Assembly: GCF_054482595.1 (NCBI RefSeq) | Contig: NZ_CM137008.1 | DNA: 64,000 nucleotides | Direction: 5' to 3' (one strand) | In this document: positions 41,801 through 47,800 of the stretch, piece by piece | Layout: each line of letters starts with the position of its first letter | Position numbering within the stretch: position 1 is the first letter of the stretch | Program-made: the position numbers

Positions 41801-44800
41801 AAGTATTGCCCTGCATTCTGTGGGGCGGGGTGGGTTGGTATGAAAAGAAGGATACCCATAGGTATTTAAAAAGTAAATACCCATGGGTAACTTTTTGCGG
41901 TGTCTTAACTGGTGACTAGTTGTTTGGTGAGCTATGATGCGTTTTGTGCTTTCTTTTTACGGATTTCTTCGTAGATCATATTGTAATACTGTTTTTTCTC
42001 TTCAAGAGTTTTTAATAAGTTATCCGCTTCACTTTCTGGCAGTTCGTCTAAGAGATCTAAAAAAATACGTTGTCGTGGCGTTAGAACCCTTGTTTCATAA
42101 CTGGAGGCTGTGTTCGTTGATGATGAAACGATACCATCCATCCATCCCCGGGGTAACCCAAAGGACTCTTCGATAATCTCCACCATATCATCAGCGATCC
42201 GTTTTTTTCCCTTTTTCCCCTCTGGGTACAACATTCTTGATACATAAGAAGGCTCGCGCCCGATCTTTCTGGCCACGTTAACCGCTTTACCATCGCATTT
42301 CTCATCACGAATTTTGATGAGTTGCTGTCGTCTAAATTCATATTTGTCCATAGGTAAATAATAGATGCGATTACCGCAAGGTAAACAACCTGTGGGTATT
42401 GACTTTTGTTTACCTGTGGGTATTCTTTACTGTGTTTACTAAGGAGTAGCTATGGAAGAATTAAGAATATTTCTCAATTCTCTTTCGTCAGATGAACAGC
42501 GTATGTTTGCATGCGAGTGTGGTACCAGCATCGGTTATCTAAGAAAGGCATTGAGTAAAGGTCAAGTGTTAGGGGCATCGTTATGCGTCCTTATTGAGCG
42601 AGCCAGTAATGGTGAAGTTACACGTCAGCAACTAAGGCCTTTTGATTGGATGAATATTTGGCCCGAGCTGGAAGATACCAAAACGTTAACACAACCACTT
42701 TCTAGGAGCTTGATTCATGAAAATCAAGCATGAACACATCCGCATGGCGATGAATGCCTGGGCGCATCCGGACGGTGAAAAAGTTCCGGCAGCTGAAATA
42801 ACCAGGGCTTATTTTGAACTGGGTATGACGTTCCCAGAACTGTATGACGACAGCCATCCGGAAGCCCTGGCTCGCAATACCCAGAAAATTTTCCGCTGGG
42901 TAGAGAAAGACACCCCTGATGCAGTTGAAAAAATTCAGGCGTTGTTACCAGCGATCGAAAAGGCAATGCCACCTTTGCTGGTGGCCAGAATGCGCAGCCA
43001 CAGTTCAGCTTATTTTCGGGAGCTGGTGGAGACGCGGGAGCGACTGGTGAGAGACGCTGATGATTTTGTCGCAGTGGCAATCGCCGGTTTCAATCAGATG
43101 AACCGTGGTGGCCCGGCAGGAAATGCTGTGGCAGTACATTGACTGACAATAGCCATATCGAATCGCTTCCGGCAACTCGTGAGTAAAAAGATTCGGTATC
43201 AGAAGAGGTGAGTATGGCTAACGCCTGGCTCAGATTATGGCATGACATGCCAAATGACCCTAAGTGGCGAACAATTGCCAGGGTGTCAGGGCAGCCAATT
43301 GCAACAGTGATGGCAGTGTATATCCACCTCCTGGTGAGCGCGTCACGAAATGTCACGCGAGGTCACATTGATGTCACGACAGAAGATTTGGCAAGTGCGC
43401 TCGACGTGACAGAAGAGGTAATTGATTCAATTTTGCAGACGATGCAGGGGCGGGTACTTGATGGTGATTTAATCACTGGATGGGAAAAACGCCAGGTGCT
43501 TAAAGAGGACAACGGCAATATTTCGCAAACCGCAAAATCTCCTGCAGAGCGCAAGAGGGCGCAGCGAGAGAGGGAAAGAAAGCGGGAACAAAATGGCGAT
43601 TGTCACGGCGCGTCACGAAATGTCACGCACATGTCACGACGAGTCACGACAGATAAAGATACAGATAAAGATACAGATCAAGAAGATCAAAACACTATGG
43701 TCCATGGCGTAAAAAACGCCACGAACCAGGCAGGGGATGTTCAGACCGTCAATCTTGGTCAGCCAGCAGGCACGACACCGGAAGCCGATTCAGCGTATGC
43801 GCTGAAAGCCGATTCGGGCGCTGTGCAGCAGGTGATGACCGCAAGGCTGGAGCAATCACACCAACTGCAGCAGCCCGAAGCCGATTCCGCCATTCAGCGG
43901 GAAGCCGATTCCGCCATTCAGCGGGAAGCCGATCGGGTAGTCCCGGAAAACACCGGGCAGTCTGTGGGACGAGTGGATTATCCGGATGTGTTCGAACAGG
44001 TCTGGCGGGAGTACCCGTTGCGTGCCGGAGCAAACCCGAAGAAATCCGCTTTCAGTGCCTGGAAGGCCAGATTACGCGAGGGGGTGCCACCAGAGGCCAT
44101 GCTGGATGGCGTGAGGCGTTACGCAAGATACTTGGCGGCTACCGGGAAAACGGGAACGGAATTTGTTCAGCGAGCGACGACGTTTTTTGGACCGGACCGG
44201 AATTTTGAGAACCCCTGGTTGCTCCCGGTAAGCGGCACGAACAACCAGCGTTGTGTGAATCATATTTCTGAACCGGATAACGAAATTCCGCCGGGCTTCA
44301 GGGGGTAAGTGTTAATTTCTGGTCATGAGGTAATTTTCAGGAGGGCTTGTGGCAAAAGTTTTTACACAAGAAGAGCGGGAAAAAATTAAAGGACAGGTTG
44401 TTGAACTCGTACGCCAGAGTGGGCGTGAGACGTTACGGCAACTGGAAGTCAAGACAGGTGCGACAAGATATCTGATGAGCGTTCTCGCAAGAGAGCTGGT
44501 TGCCAGCGGCGATGTATACAACTCTGGTTACGGGTTATTCCCGTCTGAACAGGCGCGTAAGGACTGGCAAAATGCCCGTAAAAAGCTCTCAAGGGCAAAG
44601 CTGAAGAAACCATCTGCGGTTGATCCGGACCTTATCTGGTCATTACCAGACGGAGAAATACGCCGCTACGACAGGCGCCTGAATATAATCTGTCGCGAGT
44701 GCCGGAAGAGCGAAGCTATGCAGCGTGTACTGGCTTTCTATCAGGGTAATTTTCAGGAGGCGGTACTGTAAGTGAAATTAGCTATCAGGCTTCAATTGCC

Positions 44801-47800
44801 GCTGGCATTCGCATCAAAGGAGAGGAGCATGGAAATAAAACCAGAAGATGAGTTAAGTAATATTGTTTTATTTCCGGTAAAAGAGGATGACCCACGTAAT
44901 CAGGTTAATTTTCTTTATGAGCCATCGGAAAGACCATACTGCCATCACGCTTCTGTCCGGGTTGACGAAAAAGAGCGTCAGGTCCGCTGTAAAATCTGCG
45001 GTGCAGTTGTGGAGCCATTTGACTGGATGCTCTCTGTGGCGAAAAGAGAAACCAGACTGGCAGATGATGTAAAACTATTGCGCCAGGAGGAACAGGAAAG
45101 GCGAAAAAATATAGAAAAGCTAATTCAGATTGAGCGTAATGCGAAAGCACGGATACGCAGGGTGACAAAATCCAGAACTGAATAATTAAATTTAGCACTG
45201 TTAAAAATTTAATCCTTAACCGGAGGGATTTCTGCACCCTCAGAACAGCAGGAGGCCACCCGAAAGGGTGGTAGTGAAATGCGAAAGTTCAAAATAATTA
45301 TTGAAACGGGAATAGCTGGTGGAGATTTTGAGGATGTATTCGAAGTGGACGATGACGCAACACCTGATGAAATTCATGACGAAGCAAAAGAAATTTTCTT
45401 TAACTACTGCAATTACTCATATCACGAAATAAAAGACGAAGAGGAAGAACAAAATGGCTGATTTTGGTTCAACTAAATACAACGTCAGTTTTGAAGAATG
45501 GCATGAACTGTTAATGGACTATGCAGAGTTACGTGGTGGAAGTGCTGCTGATGCTGAAGCCTGGCGTGATGACTACGAAGCAGGAAAAACTCCGGTCGAA
45601 GCATATTGTGATGAGTGGGGCGATGAATGAGCGAGATTAATTATCAGGAAGGGCATGAAACGGCAGGGCAGGCAAAACCAGTTGCATGGCGATATCGCTA
45701 CGTGAAAAAAGGCGTTACGGACTTTCAGGAGAAGATGTGGGTTGGTGACTGGAAATATGTACCGACAAAAGAGGGGTGCAACGACAGGCCGGGCTATGAG
45801 ATTCAGGCCTTATTCACTACCCCGCCAGTCCCTGTGATATCAGAAGGACTGGTTAAAGCCGTGCGCTTTTATGAACAGGTAAAGCGTGAGAATCCACCAG
45901 TCGAAACAGGAGCATGGAAAGATGCTGTTGATTGGGTACTCAAAGAGGCCTGCTGTGCTGTCATTCTGGGTAAAGCCGACAATCCACTAGCATCCAGTAA
46001 TCAGGTTGGCGAATTAACAATGTGGGTTAAACGACTGGTCAGTCAACTGAAAAAAGCTAATCCAGACTGCAAATTACCGGAGATGGCGATGGATTACCTG
46101 AAACGAAATGGACTGATAAGCGTGGAGGATGTTTTACGATGACCTGGCCTGAGGCATTTACAACGGCAGGAATCGCAATGGCTGTGGCGCTGGTGGTGTA
46201 TTCGATTTGCCGCTGGGGATAAAAACGGTTTGCGGGAAAAGGAGAGTTAAGTAGAATTGCAGCGGGTGCTTGAGGCTATCTGTCTCAGGCATGAACACCA
46301 AAAGGCAGATAGAGAAAAGCCCCAGTTAACATTACGCGTCCTGCAAGACGCTTAACATTAATCTGAGGCTCAATCTATGAACGGCAAATCTAGGTTAGCC
46401 TCTTACGTGCCGAAAGGCAAGGAGAAGCAGGCTATGAAGCAGCAAAAGGCGATGTTAATCGCCCTGATCGTCATCTGTTTAACCGTCATTGTGACGGCAC
46501 TGGTAACGAGGAAAGACCTCTGCGAGGTACGAATCCGAACCGGCCAGACGGAGGTCGCTGTCTTCACAGCTTACGAACCTGAGGAGTAAGAGACCTGGCG
46601 GGGGAGAAATCCCTCGCCACCTCTGATGTGTCAGGCATCCTCAACGCACCCGCACTTAACCCGCTTCGGCGTTTTTTCCGTTGATTAACTCTAGTTATTA
46701 GAGAACCGAACTTTTATTGATGGGGCAGGGAGATGAAGAAACTTGTTTTAGTCGCAGGTGTAATGATTGCAACAGTAATGTTGGGAGGGTGTGCAGCAAA
46801 GGTCGATCCAGCGTTGAAAGCAGAAGCAATGAAGCCACTAACATGTAATGATGAAAAGCAATGTGACTTTTATTGGAAACGAGCGCAATTCTGGTTGGCT
46901 AATAATTCCTCATGGAAAATTCAAACGGCGACAGACACGCTAATTTCCACTTATAATCCCTCTCCAAATAGTCCATTCCTCGCTTATCAGGTGAGTAAAA
47001 TGCCAAATGAAGATGGATCCTCAAGAATTTTCATCAAGCCTTTTTGCGATAATATGTTTGGCTGTCAACCAAACCCCTATCAGGCAGTTGTTTCCTTTAA
47101 AAACTTCGTTAAAACAGGGCAGTAGTGTATAGCTTGGACGATAAATTATTAGTGAAAACGCCGTAAACCCTCACCCAATGTGGACTAAGTCTATCAAACA
47201 TGACTGTGATGATTAGTCCGTAGTTGTTGCCTATGAAATCTGGATTGAGTCAGGGTTTAATCCAATAATTATTCTATCGTTCCTTTACAAGTCCGGTATA
47301 TTACTTTCAGTTTGTTTTAGCATACCCGCTTCGGCGGGTTTTGTTTTTTCCTGGCATTCTGGTTTACAATTCGCACGCCAGCCTGAACAACTGGCACCTG
47401 CTGCGCCAGCAGAGACAACCGATGGCGCACGATACCAAATTACACAATTCTGATGATTCTGCCGTCTTTGCCAGCAGGCACGGGCGGCGTTCCCGCACTT
47501 TCAAATCTGACTGGTTCCAGCATGACCCATGTACTGAAGAACAGGCCGAATGGCTAATTCATAACTATCGCAGACGCGGATACGAGATTAAGAAAGCCCT
47601 CAGCCTCGATTATCGTCACTGGATAATCTATGTCAGGCTCCCTTATTCCGAACGCCCACCGCGCCCATCCCGCACATACCAGCAACGGATCTGGAGGTAA
47701 CGTGCGGATATTACTTCGACCTGTTCTGGTACCGGAACTCGGGCTGGTGGTCCTTAGGCCGGGCCGTGAATCCATGCAAGTATTTCATAACCCTCGAGTG

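What the first reader, a model, noticed from the sequence alone, without database searches (positions are those of the whole stretch)
44349..46222. Run of six tightly coupled unknown genes, including two small acidic proteins and a 27-aa membrane peptide
These genes occupy the replication-to-nin variable region where lambdoid phages carry anti-defence, exclusion and defence cargo. The two ~60-aa highly acidic proteins could be DNA-mimic-type anti-restriction factors; the 171-aa protein with the overlapping 27-aa TM peptide could be a small effector pair. None matches a family I recognise.
Basis: inference. Interest (0 to 1): 0.5.

Follow-up and report, generated by a model that had tools for sequence, protein, structure and literature searches.

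The report
Common prophage early accessory gene array
These six small genes are real, but they are an ordinary, very widespread set of function-unknown early accessory genes of E. coli lambda-like prophages, and nothing found here shows that they block bacterial defences.

Summary
All six + strand ORFs exist at the stated coordinates and evolve as coding sequence (pN/pS 0.07-0.45), including the 27-aa membrane peptide. Only g3-g4-g5-g6 overlap; g1/g2 and g2/g3 are separated by 57 and 93 nt.

The window is an E. coli Rac/Qin-type lambdoid prophage. The run lies in the rightward early operon between the replication gene and hok/sok.
- g1: DUF977/LygF, a "Ren-like" protein carrying lambda Ren's C-terminal motif.
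- g2: PHROG 1621, a conserved C-H-C-C zinc ribbon plus coiled coil.
- g3: DUF7167.
- g4: a 50-60-aa acidic three-helix family also found in virulent phages and 554 plasmids.
- g5: a mosaic protein in the Ea22 slot.
- g6: no family match, but an independent 27-aa module present in about 22% of complete E. coli genomes and usually unannotated.

In Stx phage ArgO145, g2-g3-g4 plus an Ea22-like gene sit in the early-left operon. Best reading: a mosaic "ren + exo-xis-type" array expressed on induction or infection, encoding small modulators of early development and host physiology.

There were no hits to PADLOC defence models, to Pfam (which I recall covers Ocr and ArdA) or to solved structures. 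The DNA-mimic idea stays untested, and the g5+g6 "effector pair" is not supported.

The parts
42399..42426 (+). Context: pR-like sigma-70 promoter upstream of cro, the likely source of the transcript that carries the six genes
   Evidence: Consensus scan only (9/12 matches). It lies just upstream of the cro-like gene at 42452. No other + strand promoter-like site occurs before 46928, and no terminator-like site before 47324.
44349..44771 (+). g1: DUF977 / LygF / 'Ren-like' protein, 140 aa, basic (pI 9.8), in the position lambda ren holds after the replication genes
   Evidence: Pfam DUF977 E 4.5e-29, full length. PHROG 142 'Ren-like exclusion protein' E 8e-48; residues 1-81 also match PHROG 2391 'DNA binding protein'. 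Residues 112-131 are 60% identical to the C-terminus of lambda Ren. pN/pS 0.14.
44829..45185 (+). g2: 118-aa zinc-ribbon plus coiled-coil protein (PHROG 1621)
   Evidence: PHROG 1621 E 1.4e-55. Weak Pfam TFIIB zinc ribbon, E 2.6e-4. C38, H40, C54 and C57 are invariant in homologues 25-32% identical from 933W (L0139), Enterobacter phage Tyrion and Hafnia phage Meifeng, as is the C-terminal helix motif NxKAR. pN/pS 0.08.
45279..45461 (+). g3: DUF7167, 60 aa, net charge -14; predicted beta-hairpin plus helix
45454..45630 (+). g4: 58-aa acidic three-helix protein (net charge -12), the C-terminal module of PHROG 519
   Evidence: PHROG 519 positions 76-137 of 143, E 4.5e-23. No Pfam match. 65 representative relatives; W37 is invariant and F13, W16, Y41, G44, P47 nearly so. 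AF2 pLDDT 88.3, three helices. No specific fold match. Found in 198 phage records, including virulent Kuttervirus, Klebsiella jumbo-like and Autographiviridae phages, and in 554 plasmids, 516 of them conjugative. pN/pS 0.07.
45627..46142 (+). g5: 171-aa mosaic protein in the 'Ea22 slot' (leader 1-17, module B 18-68, C 69-113, D 114-171)
   Evidence: PHROG 660 E 8e-73, with sub-matches of separate segments to PHROGs 26213, 924, 8171 and 250. Relatives recombine modules B, C and D with Ead/Ea22 (PF13935) N-termini and DUF551 C-termini. Only the first 8-16 residues (MSEINYQ) resemble lambda Ea22 and ArgO145 gp13. No Pfam hit. pN/pS 0.45.
46139..46222 (+). g6: 27-aa single-helix membrane peptide gene, start overlapping the g5 stop (ATGA)
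   Evidence: The ORF is intact in most of 124 loci anchored on the upstream gene, and homology ends at its stop codon in at least 6 different downstream contexts. 16 of 28 polymorphic sites are third positions; pN/pS 0.11. It follows g5D-type, DUF551-type, long g2-type and other C-termini, with ATG in 149 of 159 cases. Present in 1220 of 5426 complete E. coli genomes with no feature annotated in any listed row. A few GenBank records call it 'bacteriophage protein' or 'hypothetical protein'.

Best explanation
The run is the variable early accessory array of a Rac/Qin-type lambdoid prophage of E. coli. It is transcribed as part of the rightward (pR) early operon, after the replication gene and before hok/sok. 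It combines a gene in the lambda ren position (g1, DUF977) with a cassette (g2, g3, g4, g5) whose counterparts lie in the early-left operon of Stx phage ArgO145. I equate that ArgO145 position with the exo-xis/'ea' region (inferred). A small membrane-peptide gene (g6) closes the array. The genes are interchangeable mosaic modules joined at conserved start/stop overlaps.

Shown: identity, coding status, operon position, mosaicism and distribution.

Inferred: the products are made only after induction or infection and act as small binders. g1 and g2 would bind nucleic acid or proteins; g3 and g4 are acidic protein-binding domains; g5 is an Ea22-slot protein; g6 would modulate a membrane protein. 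[quoted passage not shown] Counter-defence is a possible additional role for g4 and g3.
For: - Prophage identity and map: 100% identical to annotated E. coli chromosomes. The order is repressor, cro, YdaT/cII-like, replication initiator, [g1-g6], hokD, DUF968, RusA, Q.
- Operon context: only a pR-like promoter upstream and no terminator-like site until 47324. Overlapping starts and stops link g3 to g6.
- All six ORFs are under purifying selection.
- g1 matches DUF977 and PHROG 'Ren-like' and shares Ren's C-terminal motif.
- In Stx2 phage ArgO145 the order is Ea22-like, g2, an extra gene, g3, g4, Ea22-like. This sits in the other early operon beside PAPS reductase, HNH and toxin-antitoxin genes. 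The 933W g2 homologue L0139 lies next to a TraR/DksA-like gene and hokW.
- g5 relatives swap modules with PF13935 Ead/Ea22 and DUF551 proteins and share the MSEI(N/D)YQ leader.
- The array content between g1 and hok is highly variable.
- Literature: the exo-xis region on a multicopy plasmid impairs lysogenization and gives delayed but more effective induction (PMC3824215). Ea22 favours lysogeny (PMC7093339). Exo-xis proteins are modelled as transcription/RNAP modulators (PMC8614690).
Against: - No member of the g1-g6 families has a tested function. The link to exo-xis phenotypes rests on shared genomic position and mosaic partners, not on homology to the studied genes (orf60a, orf61, orf63, orf73, ea22, ea8.5).
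- g5 itself does not match the Ead/Ea22 Pfam domain.
- g4 also occurs in virulent phages and conjugative plasmids, which have no lysis-lysogeny decision. Its function must therefore be more general.
- The promoter and terminator scans are consensus matches only.
Confidence: 0.6

Rival explanations
1. g3 and/or g4 are counter-defence proteins: acidic DNA mimics, or other inhibitors of restriction-modification or another host nuclease or immune protein, made early to protect incoming or replicating phage DNA.
For: - About 30% acidic residues; net charge -14 and -12 in 60 and 58 aa.
- Early-operon position without its own promoter.
- The g4 family is shared by temperate phages, virulent Kuttervirus, Klebsiella and Autographiviridae phages, and 516 conjugative plasmids. 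In large plasmids it sits in long one-directional arrays of small ORFs. From my own knowledge, many anti-defence genes show this distribution.
- DUF7167 lies next to exonuclease genes in Klebsiella phages.
Against: - No sequence, profile or fold similarity to any solved anti-restriction or anti-CRISPR protein, and no other Pfam hit. From my own knowledge Pfam-A includes the Ocr and ArdA families; I did not check this.
- The near-invariant residues of g4 are aromatic or structural (W37, F13, W16, Y41, G44, P47), not an acidic array.
- Both models are compact domains of about 60 residues, not the elongated shapes of Ocr or ArdA.
- In IncI2 plasmids g4 sits at the head of a CaiF-DUF1187-g4-SPFH-NfeD-T4SS operon, with none of the usual leading-region marker genes (ssb, psiB, ardA; my own expectation of what marks one) annotated nearby.
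- Charge alone is common in small phage proteins.
Confidence: 0.2
2. The array is prophage-borne defence or exclusion cargo that protects the lysogen. g1 would act as a Ren-type exclusion factor, and g5/g6 or g6 alone as a membrane-acting abortive effector.
For: PHROG labels g1 'Ren-like exclusion protein'. g6 is a small hydrophobic peptide next to the hok/sok toxin locus. The region is variable, and other cargo, including toxin-antitoxin and HNH genes, occupies it in relatives. In E. coli SE11, a DUF977 gene lies directly upstream of a COG1479 gene listed in a published supplement table; reading that gene as a defence gene is my inference.
Against: - No PADLOC hit for any of the six.
- No internal promoter or terminator, so expression in the repressed lysogen is unlikely.
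- From my own knowledge, lambda Ren protects the phage from Rex rather than excluding others.
- g6 is not tied to g5 and shows no similarity to Hok/Gef, holins or any toxin family.
Confidence: 0.1
3. Some of the ORFs, especially the 27-aa g6, are chance ORFs or non-coding linker sequence.
For: g6 is below most gene-callers' length limit and is not annotated by RefSeq. It has no family match.
Against: - pN/pS 0.11, with 16 of 28 variable sites at third positions.
- Amino-acid changes are conservative: F/L, A/V, M/L, V/M.
- Homology ends exactly at its stop codon in at least 6 downstream contexts.
- The ATGA overlap is kept behind unrelated upstream genes.
- The other five ORFs have pN/pS 0.07-0.45 and match protein families.
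Confidence: 0.03

Closest known systems
Lambda Ren, with Pfam DUF977 (YdaW/LygF) proteins of Rac-type prophages
   Same: g1 takes the same slot directly after the replication genes. It is a full-length DUF977 and PHROG 142 member, and it shares Ren's C-terminal motif (NIICRECRKSEAMQRVLAFY against NLVFKECRQSAAMKRVLAVY).
   Different: g1 is 140 aa against 96 aa for Ren, and only the last 20 residues align by BLASTP. Ren's phenotype (escape from Rex exclusion; my own knowledge) has no known mechanism and was not tested here. The window's prophage region shows no rexAB.
[quoted passage not shown]
   Same: These are small early genes of unknown biochemistry, arranged as mosaic, overlapping modules. 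Apart from a 70-aa extra gene between g2 and g3, the same g2-g3-g4 cassette plus an Ea22-like gene sits in the early-left operon of Stx phage ArgO145. g5 starts with the Ea22-type leader and swaps modules with PF13935 proteins.
   Different: None of g2 to g6 is homologous to the studied exo-xis genes. Here the cassette is in the rightward operon, in the ren-nin interval. g5 lacks the Ead/Ea22 Pfam domain.
DNA-mimic anti-restriction proteins (T7 Ocr, ArdA)
   Same: Small, strongly acidic, early-expressed proteins carried by mobile elements; the g4 family is on both phages and conjugative plasmids.
   Different: No sequence, profile or fold similarity. The predicted folds are a compact three-helix bundle (g4) and a beta-hairpin plus helix (g3). 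The conserved positions are aromatic, not acidic.
IncI2 plasmid operon CaiF/GrlA regulator - DUF1187 - g4 homologue - SPFH - NfeD - T4SS
   Same: The 58-aa protein WP_000753050.1 is 88% identical to g4. As in the window, it is translationally coupled by an 8-nt overlap to a small upstream gene.
   Different: The upstream partner is DUF1187, which is unrelated to DUF7167/g3. The context is a conjugation operon, not a phage early operon.
Small bacterial membrane regulators of under 50 aa (for example KdpF, AcrZ, MgrB; my own knowledge)
   Same: g6 is a 27-aa single hydrophobic helix encoded at the end of an operon with a coupled start.
   Different: The only hit is a sub-threshold KdpF match (E 0.034, 14 bits against a cutoff of 26.85), which I read as compositional. 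No target is known.

Membership tests
Pfam DUF977 (PF06163) | Full-length match to the family HMM | tested here: met
   g1 residues 1-136 against model 1-134 of 134, E 4.5e-29. RefSeq names it 'DUF977 family protein'.
Lambda Ren (Rex-escape protein) | Sequence homology to lambda Ren | tested here: inconclusive
   BLASTP aligns only 20 C-terminal residues (60% identity, E 4e-7). PHROG 142, labelled Ren-like, matches full length at E 8e-48.
Lambda Ren (Rex-escape protein) | Confers resistance to RexAB exclusion | not testable with these tools
   Needs a phage genetics assay.
Pfam DUF7167 (PF23768) | Match to the family HMM | tested here: met
   g3 residues 2-53 against model 1-60 of 60, E 3.1e-14.
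Ead/Ea22-like (PF13935) | Presence of the Ead/Ea22 domain | tested here: not met
   g5 has no Pfam match even at E 10. Only residues 1-23 align to lambda Ea22 (E 0.007). Relatives that carry PF13935 share only g5's modules B to D.
Zinc-ribbon proteins | Four conserved Zn ligands in two knuckles | tested here: met
   In g2, C38-x-H40 and C54-x2-C57 are invariant at 25-32% identity, with a weak TFIIB Zn-ribbon hit. Metal binding itself was not tested.
DNA-mimic anti-restriction (Ocr, ArdA) | Homology to the Ocr or ArdA families | tested here: not met
   Pfam-A scans gave no hit for g4 even at E 10. For g3 they gave DUF7167 plus a weak AnkX_ins hit (E 0.012) and nothing related to Ocr or ArdA. 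That Pfam-A contains the Ocr and ArdA families is my own recollection, not checked here. PDB sequence and profile searches gave nothing.
DNA-mimic anti-restriction (Ocr, ArdA) | High negative charge density | tested here: met
   Net charge -14 over 60 aa and -12 over 58 aa; pI about 4.05.
DNA-mimic anti-restriction (Ocr, ArdA) | Surface carboxylates arranged like the B-DNA backbone; binding to R-M enzymes | not testable with these tools
   The models are compact small domains with no fold match to known mimics. Charge geometry and binding need structures and assays.
Known anti-phage defence systems (PADLOC-DB) | Match to any defence-system HMM | tested here: not met
   No hit at E 0.1 or better for any of the six proteins.
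Lambda Nin proteins (NinB-NinH) | Homology to any Nin family | tested here: not met
   None of the PHROG or Pfam matches is a Nin family. The RusA-like resolvase lies further downstream at 48758-49123.
Hok/Gef or holin-type small membrane toxins (for g6) | Match to a family model | tested here: not met
   No PHROG hit. The only NCBIfam hit is sub-threshold KdpF. The true hok/mok gene is the next locus, at 46377-46589.

The most novel reading that the evidence does not exclude
g4, perhaps acting with its coupled upstream partner g3, founds an uncharacterised family of small acidic inhibitors. Its target would be a conserved enterobacterial protein: a defence nuclease, or another DNA- or transcription-associated factor. 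The family is shared by temperate phages, virulent Ackermannviridae and Autographiviridae, and conjugative plasmids. Separately, g6 would be a genuine but overlooked 27-aa membrane micro-protein gene carried by about a fifth of E. coli genomes, one that modulates a host membrane protein during phage development.
Probability: 0.2. Interest if true: 0.55.

Novelty: already known. Interest (0 to 1): 0.25.

Why it matters
As found, this is a routine piece of E. coli prophage "dark matter". At least part of the run matches 4290 of 5426 complete E. coli genomes, and five of the six genes belong to catalogued families of unknown function.

Two things give it residual value:
- The g4 family is a conserved 50-60-aa acidic domain spread across temperate phages, virulent phages and conjugative plasmids. 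It is a cheap and reasonable candidate for screens of anti-defence or host-takeover function.
- g6 is a selected 27-aa membrane-peptide gene that standard annotation misses. It is coupled by an ATGA overlap (ATG in 149 of 159 occurrences) to whichever gene ends the array.

The locus also shows that exo-xis-type cassettes move between the leftward and rightward early operons of lambdoid phages.

Tried and rejected
- PADLOC and NCBIfam scans of all six proteins: nothing, apart from sub-threshold chance hits to AmpC and KdpF.
- PDB sequence searches with single sequences and with family profiles for g2, g3 and g4: only designed proteins or coiled coils at non-significant scores.
- Literature searches for DUF977, DUF7167, LygF, the PHROG numbers and the g6 peptide sequence: no functional study. 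The only relevant "LygF" hits were Salmonella draft-genome announcements; from my own recollection the name comes from the serovar Enteritidis Sdf region. I did not open those papers.
- Supplement search of the accessory-gene screen PMC12373910 for the five protein sequences: none present.
- Idea that g3 and g4 are an obligate pair: they co-occur in 69 of 76 E. coli-type loci. However, distant DUF7167 genes are not followed by g4 relatives, and g4 pairs with DUF1187 on plasmids.
- Idea that g6 is a C-terminal piece of DUF551 proteins, suggested by the cluster look-up: rejected, because those proteins do not contain the g6 sequence; they are its upstream neighbours.
- Idea that the hairpin before g3 is a terminator or a notable RNA: no T-run, and the fold z-score is only -1.5.

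
Full report
**What is there**

The + strand between 44349 and 46222 carries six ORFs:
- g1: 44349-44771, 140 aa.
- g2: 44829-45185, 118 aa. The alternative GTG at 44772 is less likely, because the ATG at 44829 follows AGGAG, is the RefSeq start, and fits the homologue alignment.
- g3: 45279-45461, 60 aa.
- g4: 45454-45630, 58 aa.
- g5: 45627-46142, 171 aa.
- g6: 46139-46222, 27 aa.

g3 and g4 are strongly acidic: pI 4.06 and 4.05, net charge -14 and -12. g6 is a single hydrophobic stretch with GRAVY 1.0. Only g3/g4 (8-nt overlap), g4/g5 and g5/g6 (ATGA) overlap. g1-g2 and g2-g3 are separated by 57 and 93 nt, so "tightly coupled" is accurate only for the last four genes.

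**Are they genes?**

I fetched about 200 related prophage loci from IMG/VR in two scans. One was anchored on the 3' end of g5 and one on g6. The selection statistics below use the roughly 120 loci of the first scan.

In ungapped near-full-length copies, polymorphic sites concentrate at third codon positions. Pooled pN/pS against the window sequence is 0.14 (g1), 0.08 (g2), 0.09 (g3), 0.07 (g4), 0.45 (g5) and 0.11 (g6).

For g6 the evidence is as follows:
- Substitutions are mostly synonymous or conservative (F/L, A/V, M/L, V/M).
- A few copies carry frameshifts or a stop codon.
- Homology to the window ends exactly at the g6 stop codon in at least six different downstream contexts.

All six are therefore real coding sequences.

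**Genomic setting**

The stretch is 100% identical to several annotated E. coli chromosomes. At least part of it occurs in 4290 of 5426 complete E. coli genomes, and at least 80% of it in 806.

In strain Ecol_881 it belongs to a lambdoid prophage next to tRNA-Ser and mtfA, with this gene order:
- frameshifted integrase;
- a large exonuclease gene (RecE-like, judging from the Rac/Qin gene order; not tested), dicB, (DicF), ydfC;
- repressor, cro, YdaT/cII-like gene;
- a single 366-aa replication initiator with a DnaD-like C-terminus;
- g1 to g6;
- hokD/sok, a lipoprotein, a rem-like gene, DUF968/HNH, RusA, Q;
- a tRNA cluster and the lysis genes.

Rfam places sok RNA at 46264-46439, 41 nt after g6. 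A consensus scan finds a pR-like promoter at 42399-42426, no other + strand promoter-like site before 46928, and no terminator-like site until 47324. The six genes therefore most likely ride on the rightward early transcript. This step is inferred from consensus scans only.

**What the proteins are**

*g1* is a full-length Pfam DUF977 protein (E 4.5e-29). It matches PHROG 142 "Ren-like exclusion protein" (E 8e-48), and its N-terminal 81 residues match a PHROG of DNA-binding proteins. Its last 20 residues are 60% identical to the C-terminus of lambda Ren, which occupies the same position after O and P.

*g2* belongs to PHROG 1621. Homologues 25-32% identical from 933W (L0139), Enterobacter phage Tyrion and Hafnia phage Meifeng keep C38, H40, C54 and C57, along with a C-terminal helix motif. 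There is also a weak TFIIB-type zinc-ribbon hit. g2 is therefore a zinc-ribbon plus coiled-coil protein.

*g4* has no Pfam family but matches the C-terminal half of PHROG 519. An exhaustive search of 1.84 billion representative proteins gave 65 relatives of 50-60 aa. W37 is invariant, and F13, W16, Y41, G44 and P47 are nearly so. The AF2 model (pLDDT 88.3) is a three-helix bundle without a specific structural relative.

The g4 family is unusually widespread. It occurs in 198 phage records, including virulent Kuttervirus, Klebsiella jumbo-like and Autographiviridae phages. It also occurs in 554 plasmids, 516 of them conjugative. In IncI2 plasmids an 88%-identical copy is the third gene of a CaiF/GrlA - DUF1187 - g4 - SPFH - NfeD - T4SS operon and overlaps DUF1187 by 8 nt. 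In large IncT and IncFIB plasmids it lies in long one-directional arrays of small unknown ORFs.

*g5* matches PHROG 660, but its segments separately match other PHROGs. Its 1622 relatives show free recombination of a leader (residues 1-17) and modules B (18-68), C (69-113) and D (114-171) with Ead/Ea22 (PF13935) N-termini and DUF551 C-termini. Only the leader MSEINYQ resembles lambda Ea22 and the Ea22-like protein that fills the same slot after g4 in phage ArgO145. g5 itself has no Pfam domain. Its higher pN/pS of 0.45 fits a loosely constrained mosaic protein.

*g6* has no family match. It occurs in 1220 of 5426 complete genomes, and none of the listed rows shows an annotated feature over it. 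A few GenBank submissions call it "bacteriophage protein".

**Mosaic behaviour**

Among the related loci the array between g1 and hok ranges from 1.15 to 7.65 kb, and g2, g3-g4 and the g5 modules are present or absent in many combinations. g3 and g4 co-occur in 69 of 76 loci that have either. More distant DUF7167 genes, however, are not followed by g4 relatives.

g6 anchored on its own sequence is preceded by several kinds of gene end: g5D-type C-termini (most cases), DUF551-type ends (...HWMPLPEPPQEVNQ), long g2-type ends (...LYAENDLKNIEQEVNR) and others. The start codon is ATG in 149 of 159 cases and overlaps the upstream stop as ATGA. Conversely, 26 of 124 loci with the g5D end lack g6. g6 is thus an independent module that closes the array, not a dedicated partner of g5.

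In Stx2 phage ArgO145 the order Ea22-like, g2, an extra gene, g3, g4, Ea22-like lies in the other early operon, together with PAPS reductase, HNH and toxin-antitoxin genes. In 933W the g2 homologue sits beside a TraR/DksA-like gene and hokW/sokW. I read the ArgO145 position as the exo-xis/"ea" region (inferred), so the cassette appears to belong to the exo-xis gene pool and can sit in either early operon.

**How it most likely works**

Shown: these are conserved, translated-looking, mosaic early-operon genes of catalogued but uncharacterised families.

Inferred: they are made after induction or infection and act as small binding proteins that adjust early development and host physiology. This inference rests on published work on the exo-xis region:
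- On a multicopy plasmid the region impairs lysogenization and gives delayed but more effective induction (PMC3824215).
- Ea22 favours lysogeny (PMC7093339).
- Exo-xis proteins are modelled as transcription/RNAP modulators (PMC8614690).

It also rests on the ren-like identity of g1. That Ren lets lambda escape Rex exclusion is my own knowledge, not tested here.

The presence of g4 in virulent phages and conjugative plasmids shows that at least this module has a more general role. Counter-defence is one reasonable possibility.

The location call is right, and none of the six is a NinB-NinH homologue.

The DNA-mimic suggestion has only charge in its favour. There is no PADLOC, NCBIfam, Pfam, PDB-sequence, PDB-profile or fold similarity to any known anti-restriction or anti-CRISPR protein. 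The conserved residues of g4 are aromatic rather than acidic.

The "171-aa protein plus TM peptide effector pair" is contradicted by the independence of g6. Defence cargo expressed from the lysogen is unlikely without an internal promoter.

**Verdict**

This is an ordinary, very common prophage accessory array made of known families of unknown function. Novelty is low. Two items are worth carrying forward: the broadly distributed g4 family as a screening candidate, and the selected but usually unannotated 27-aa g6 gene.

Noticed in passing
window 46264-46589: A complete hok/sok-type locus starts 41 nt after g6: Rfam sok, 112 bits at 46264-46439, and mok/hokD at 46377-46589. The same array-then-hok/sok arrangement occurs in phage 933W (L0139 followed by hokW/sokW).
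   Followed up: partly
window 46733-47339: A 130-aa lipoprotein gene (signal peptide with lipobox ...LGGC, PHROG 16082) is followed by the first good terminator-like hairpin with a T-run (47324-47339). Together with hok/sok it looks like a moron-type unit downstream of the array.
   Followed up: no
window 43601-43683 and 43877-43933: Iteron-like tandem repeats lie inside the replication-initiator gene: TGTCACGACA x5, a 12-bp unit x2.9 and a 24-bp unit x2.4. This is probably the prophage origin, as in lambda O. The prophage has a single fused initiator/DnaD-like protein and no DnaC/P-type loader gene.
   Followed up: partly
window 45255-45272: A GC-rich hairpin with a GAAA loop (gccaccc-gaaa-gggtggt) lies immediately upstream of the g3 start and covers its likely ribosome-binding site. 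There is no T-run, and the region's fold z-score is only -1.5. In ArgO145 an extra 70-aa gene lies between g2 and g3.
   Followed up: partly
window 40623-40674 (-) and neighbours: DicF sRNA (Rfam, 76.7 bits) with dicB and ydfC shows the left arm is Qin/Rac-like. The integrase of the identical prophage in strain Ecol_881 is annotated as frameshifted, so the prophage may be defective for excision.
   Followed up: no
window 50019-50328; also 15648-35116 and 36108-36197: A phage tRNA cluster (Met, Lys, Thr, Gly) lies downstream of Q. Four tRNA-Asn genes lie in the chromosomal part of the window, and tRNA-Ser (cga) at 36108-36197 lies next to the integrase end of the prophage and may be the attachment site.
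   Followed up: no
L207 (IncI2 plasmid NZ_CP011294) 6348-8662: An 88%-identical g4 homologue lies in the operon CaiF/GrlA regulator - DUF1187 - g4 - SPFH - NfeD ahead of the T4SS genes. PHROG 519 (143 aa) seems to be built from DUF1187+g4 read-through fusions such as P0269.
   Followed up: partly
L002 (phage vB_EcoS-689R5) 7632-7742, plus 5 IMG/VR loci: A 1-nt deletion just after the g6 ATG gives a frameshifted 36-aa ORF, which that record annotates as a hypothetical protein. This is either natural inactivation of g6 or a homopolymer sequencing error.
   Followed up: no
cluster look-up: The 27-aa g6 sequences are filed in the same 90%-identity clusters as 121-aa and 185-aa DUF551 proteins that do not contain the g6 sequence; those proteins are its upstream neighbours. 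This looks like a clustering or bookkeeping artefact of the collection.
   Followed up: partly
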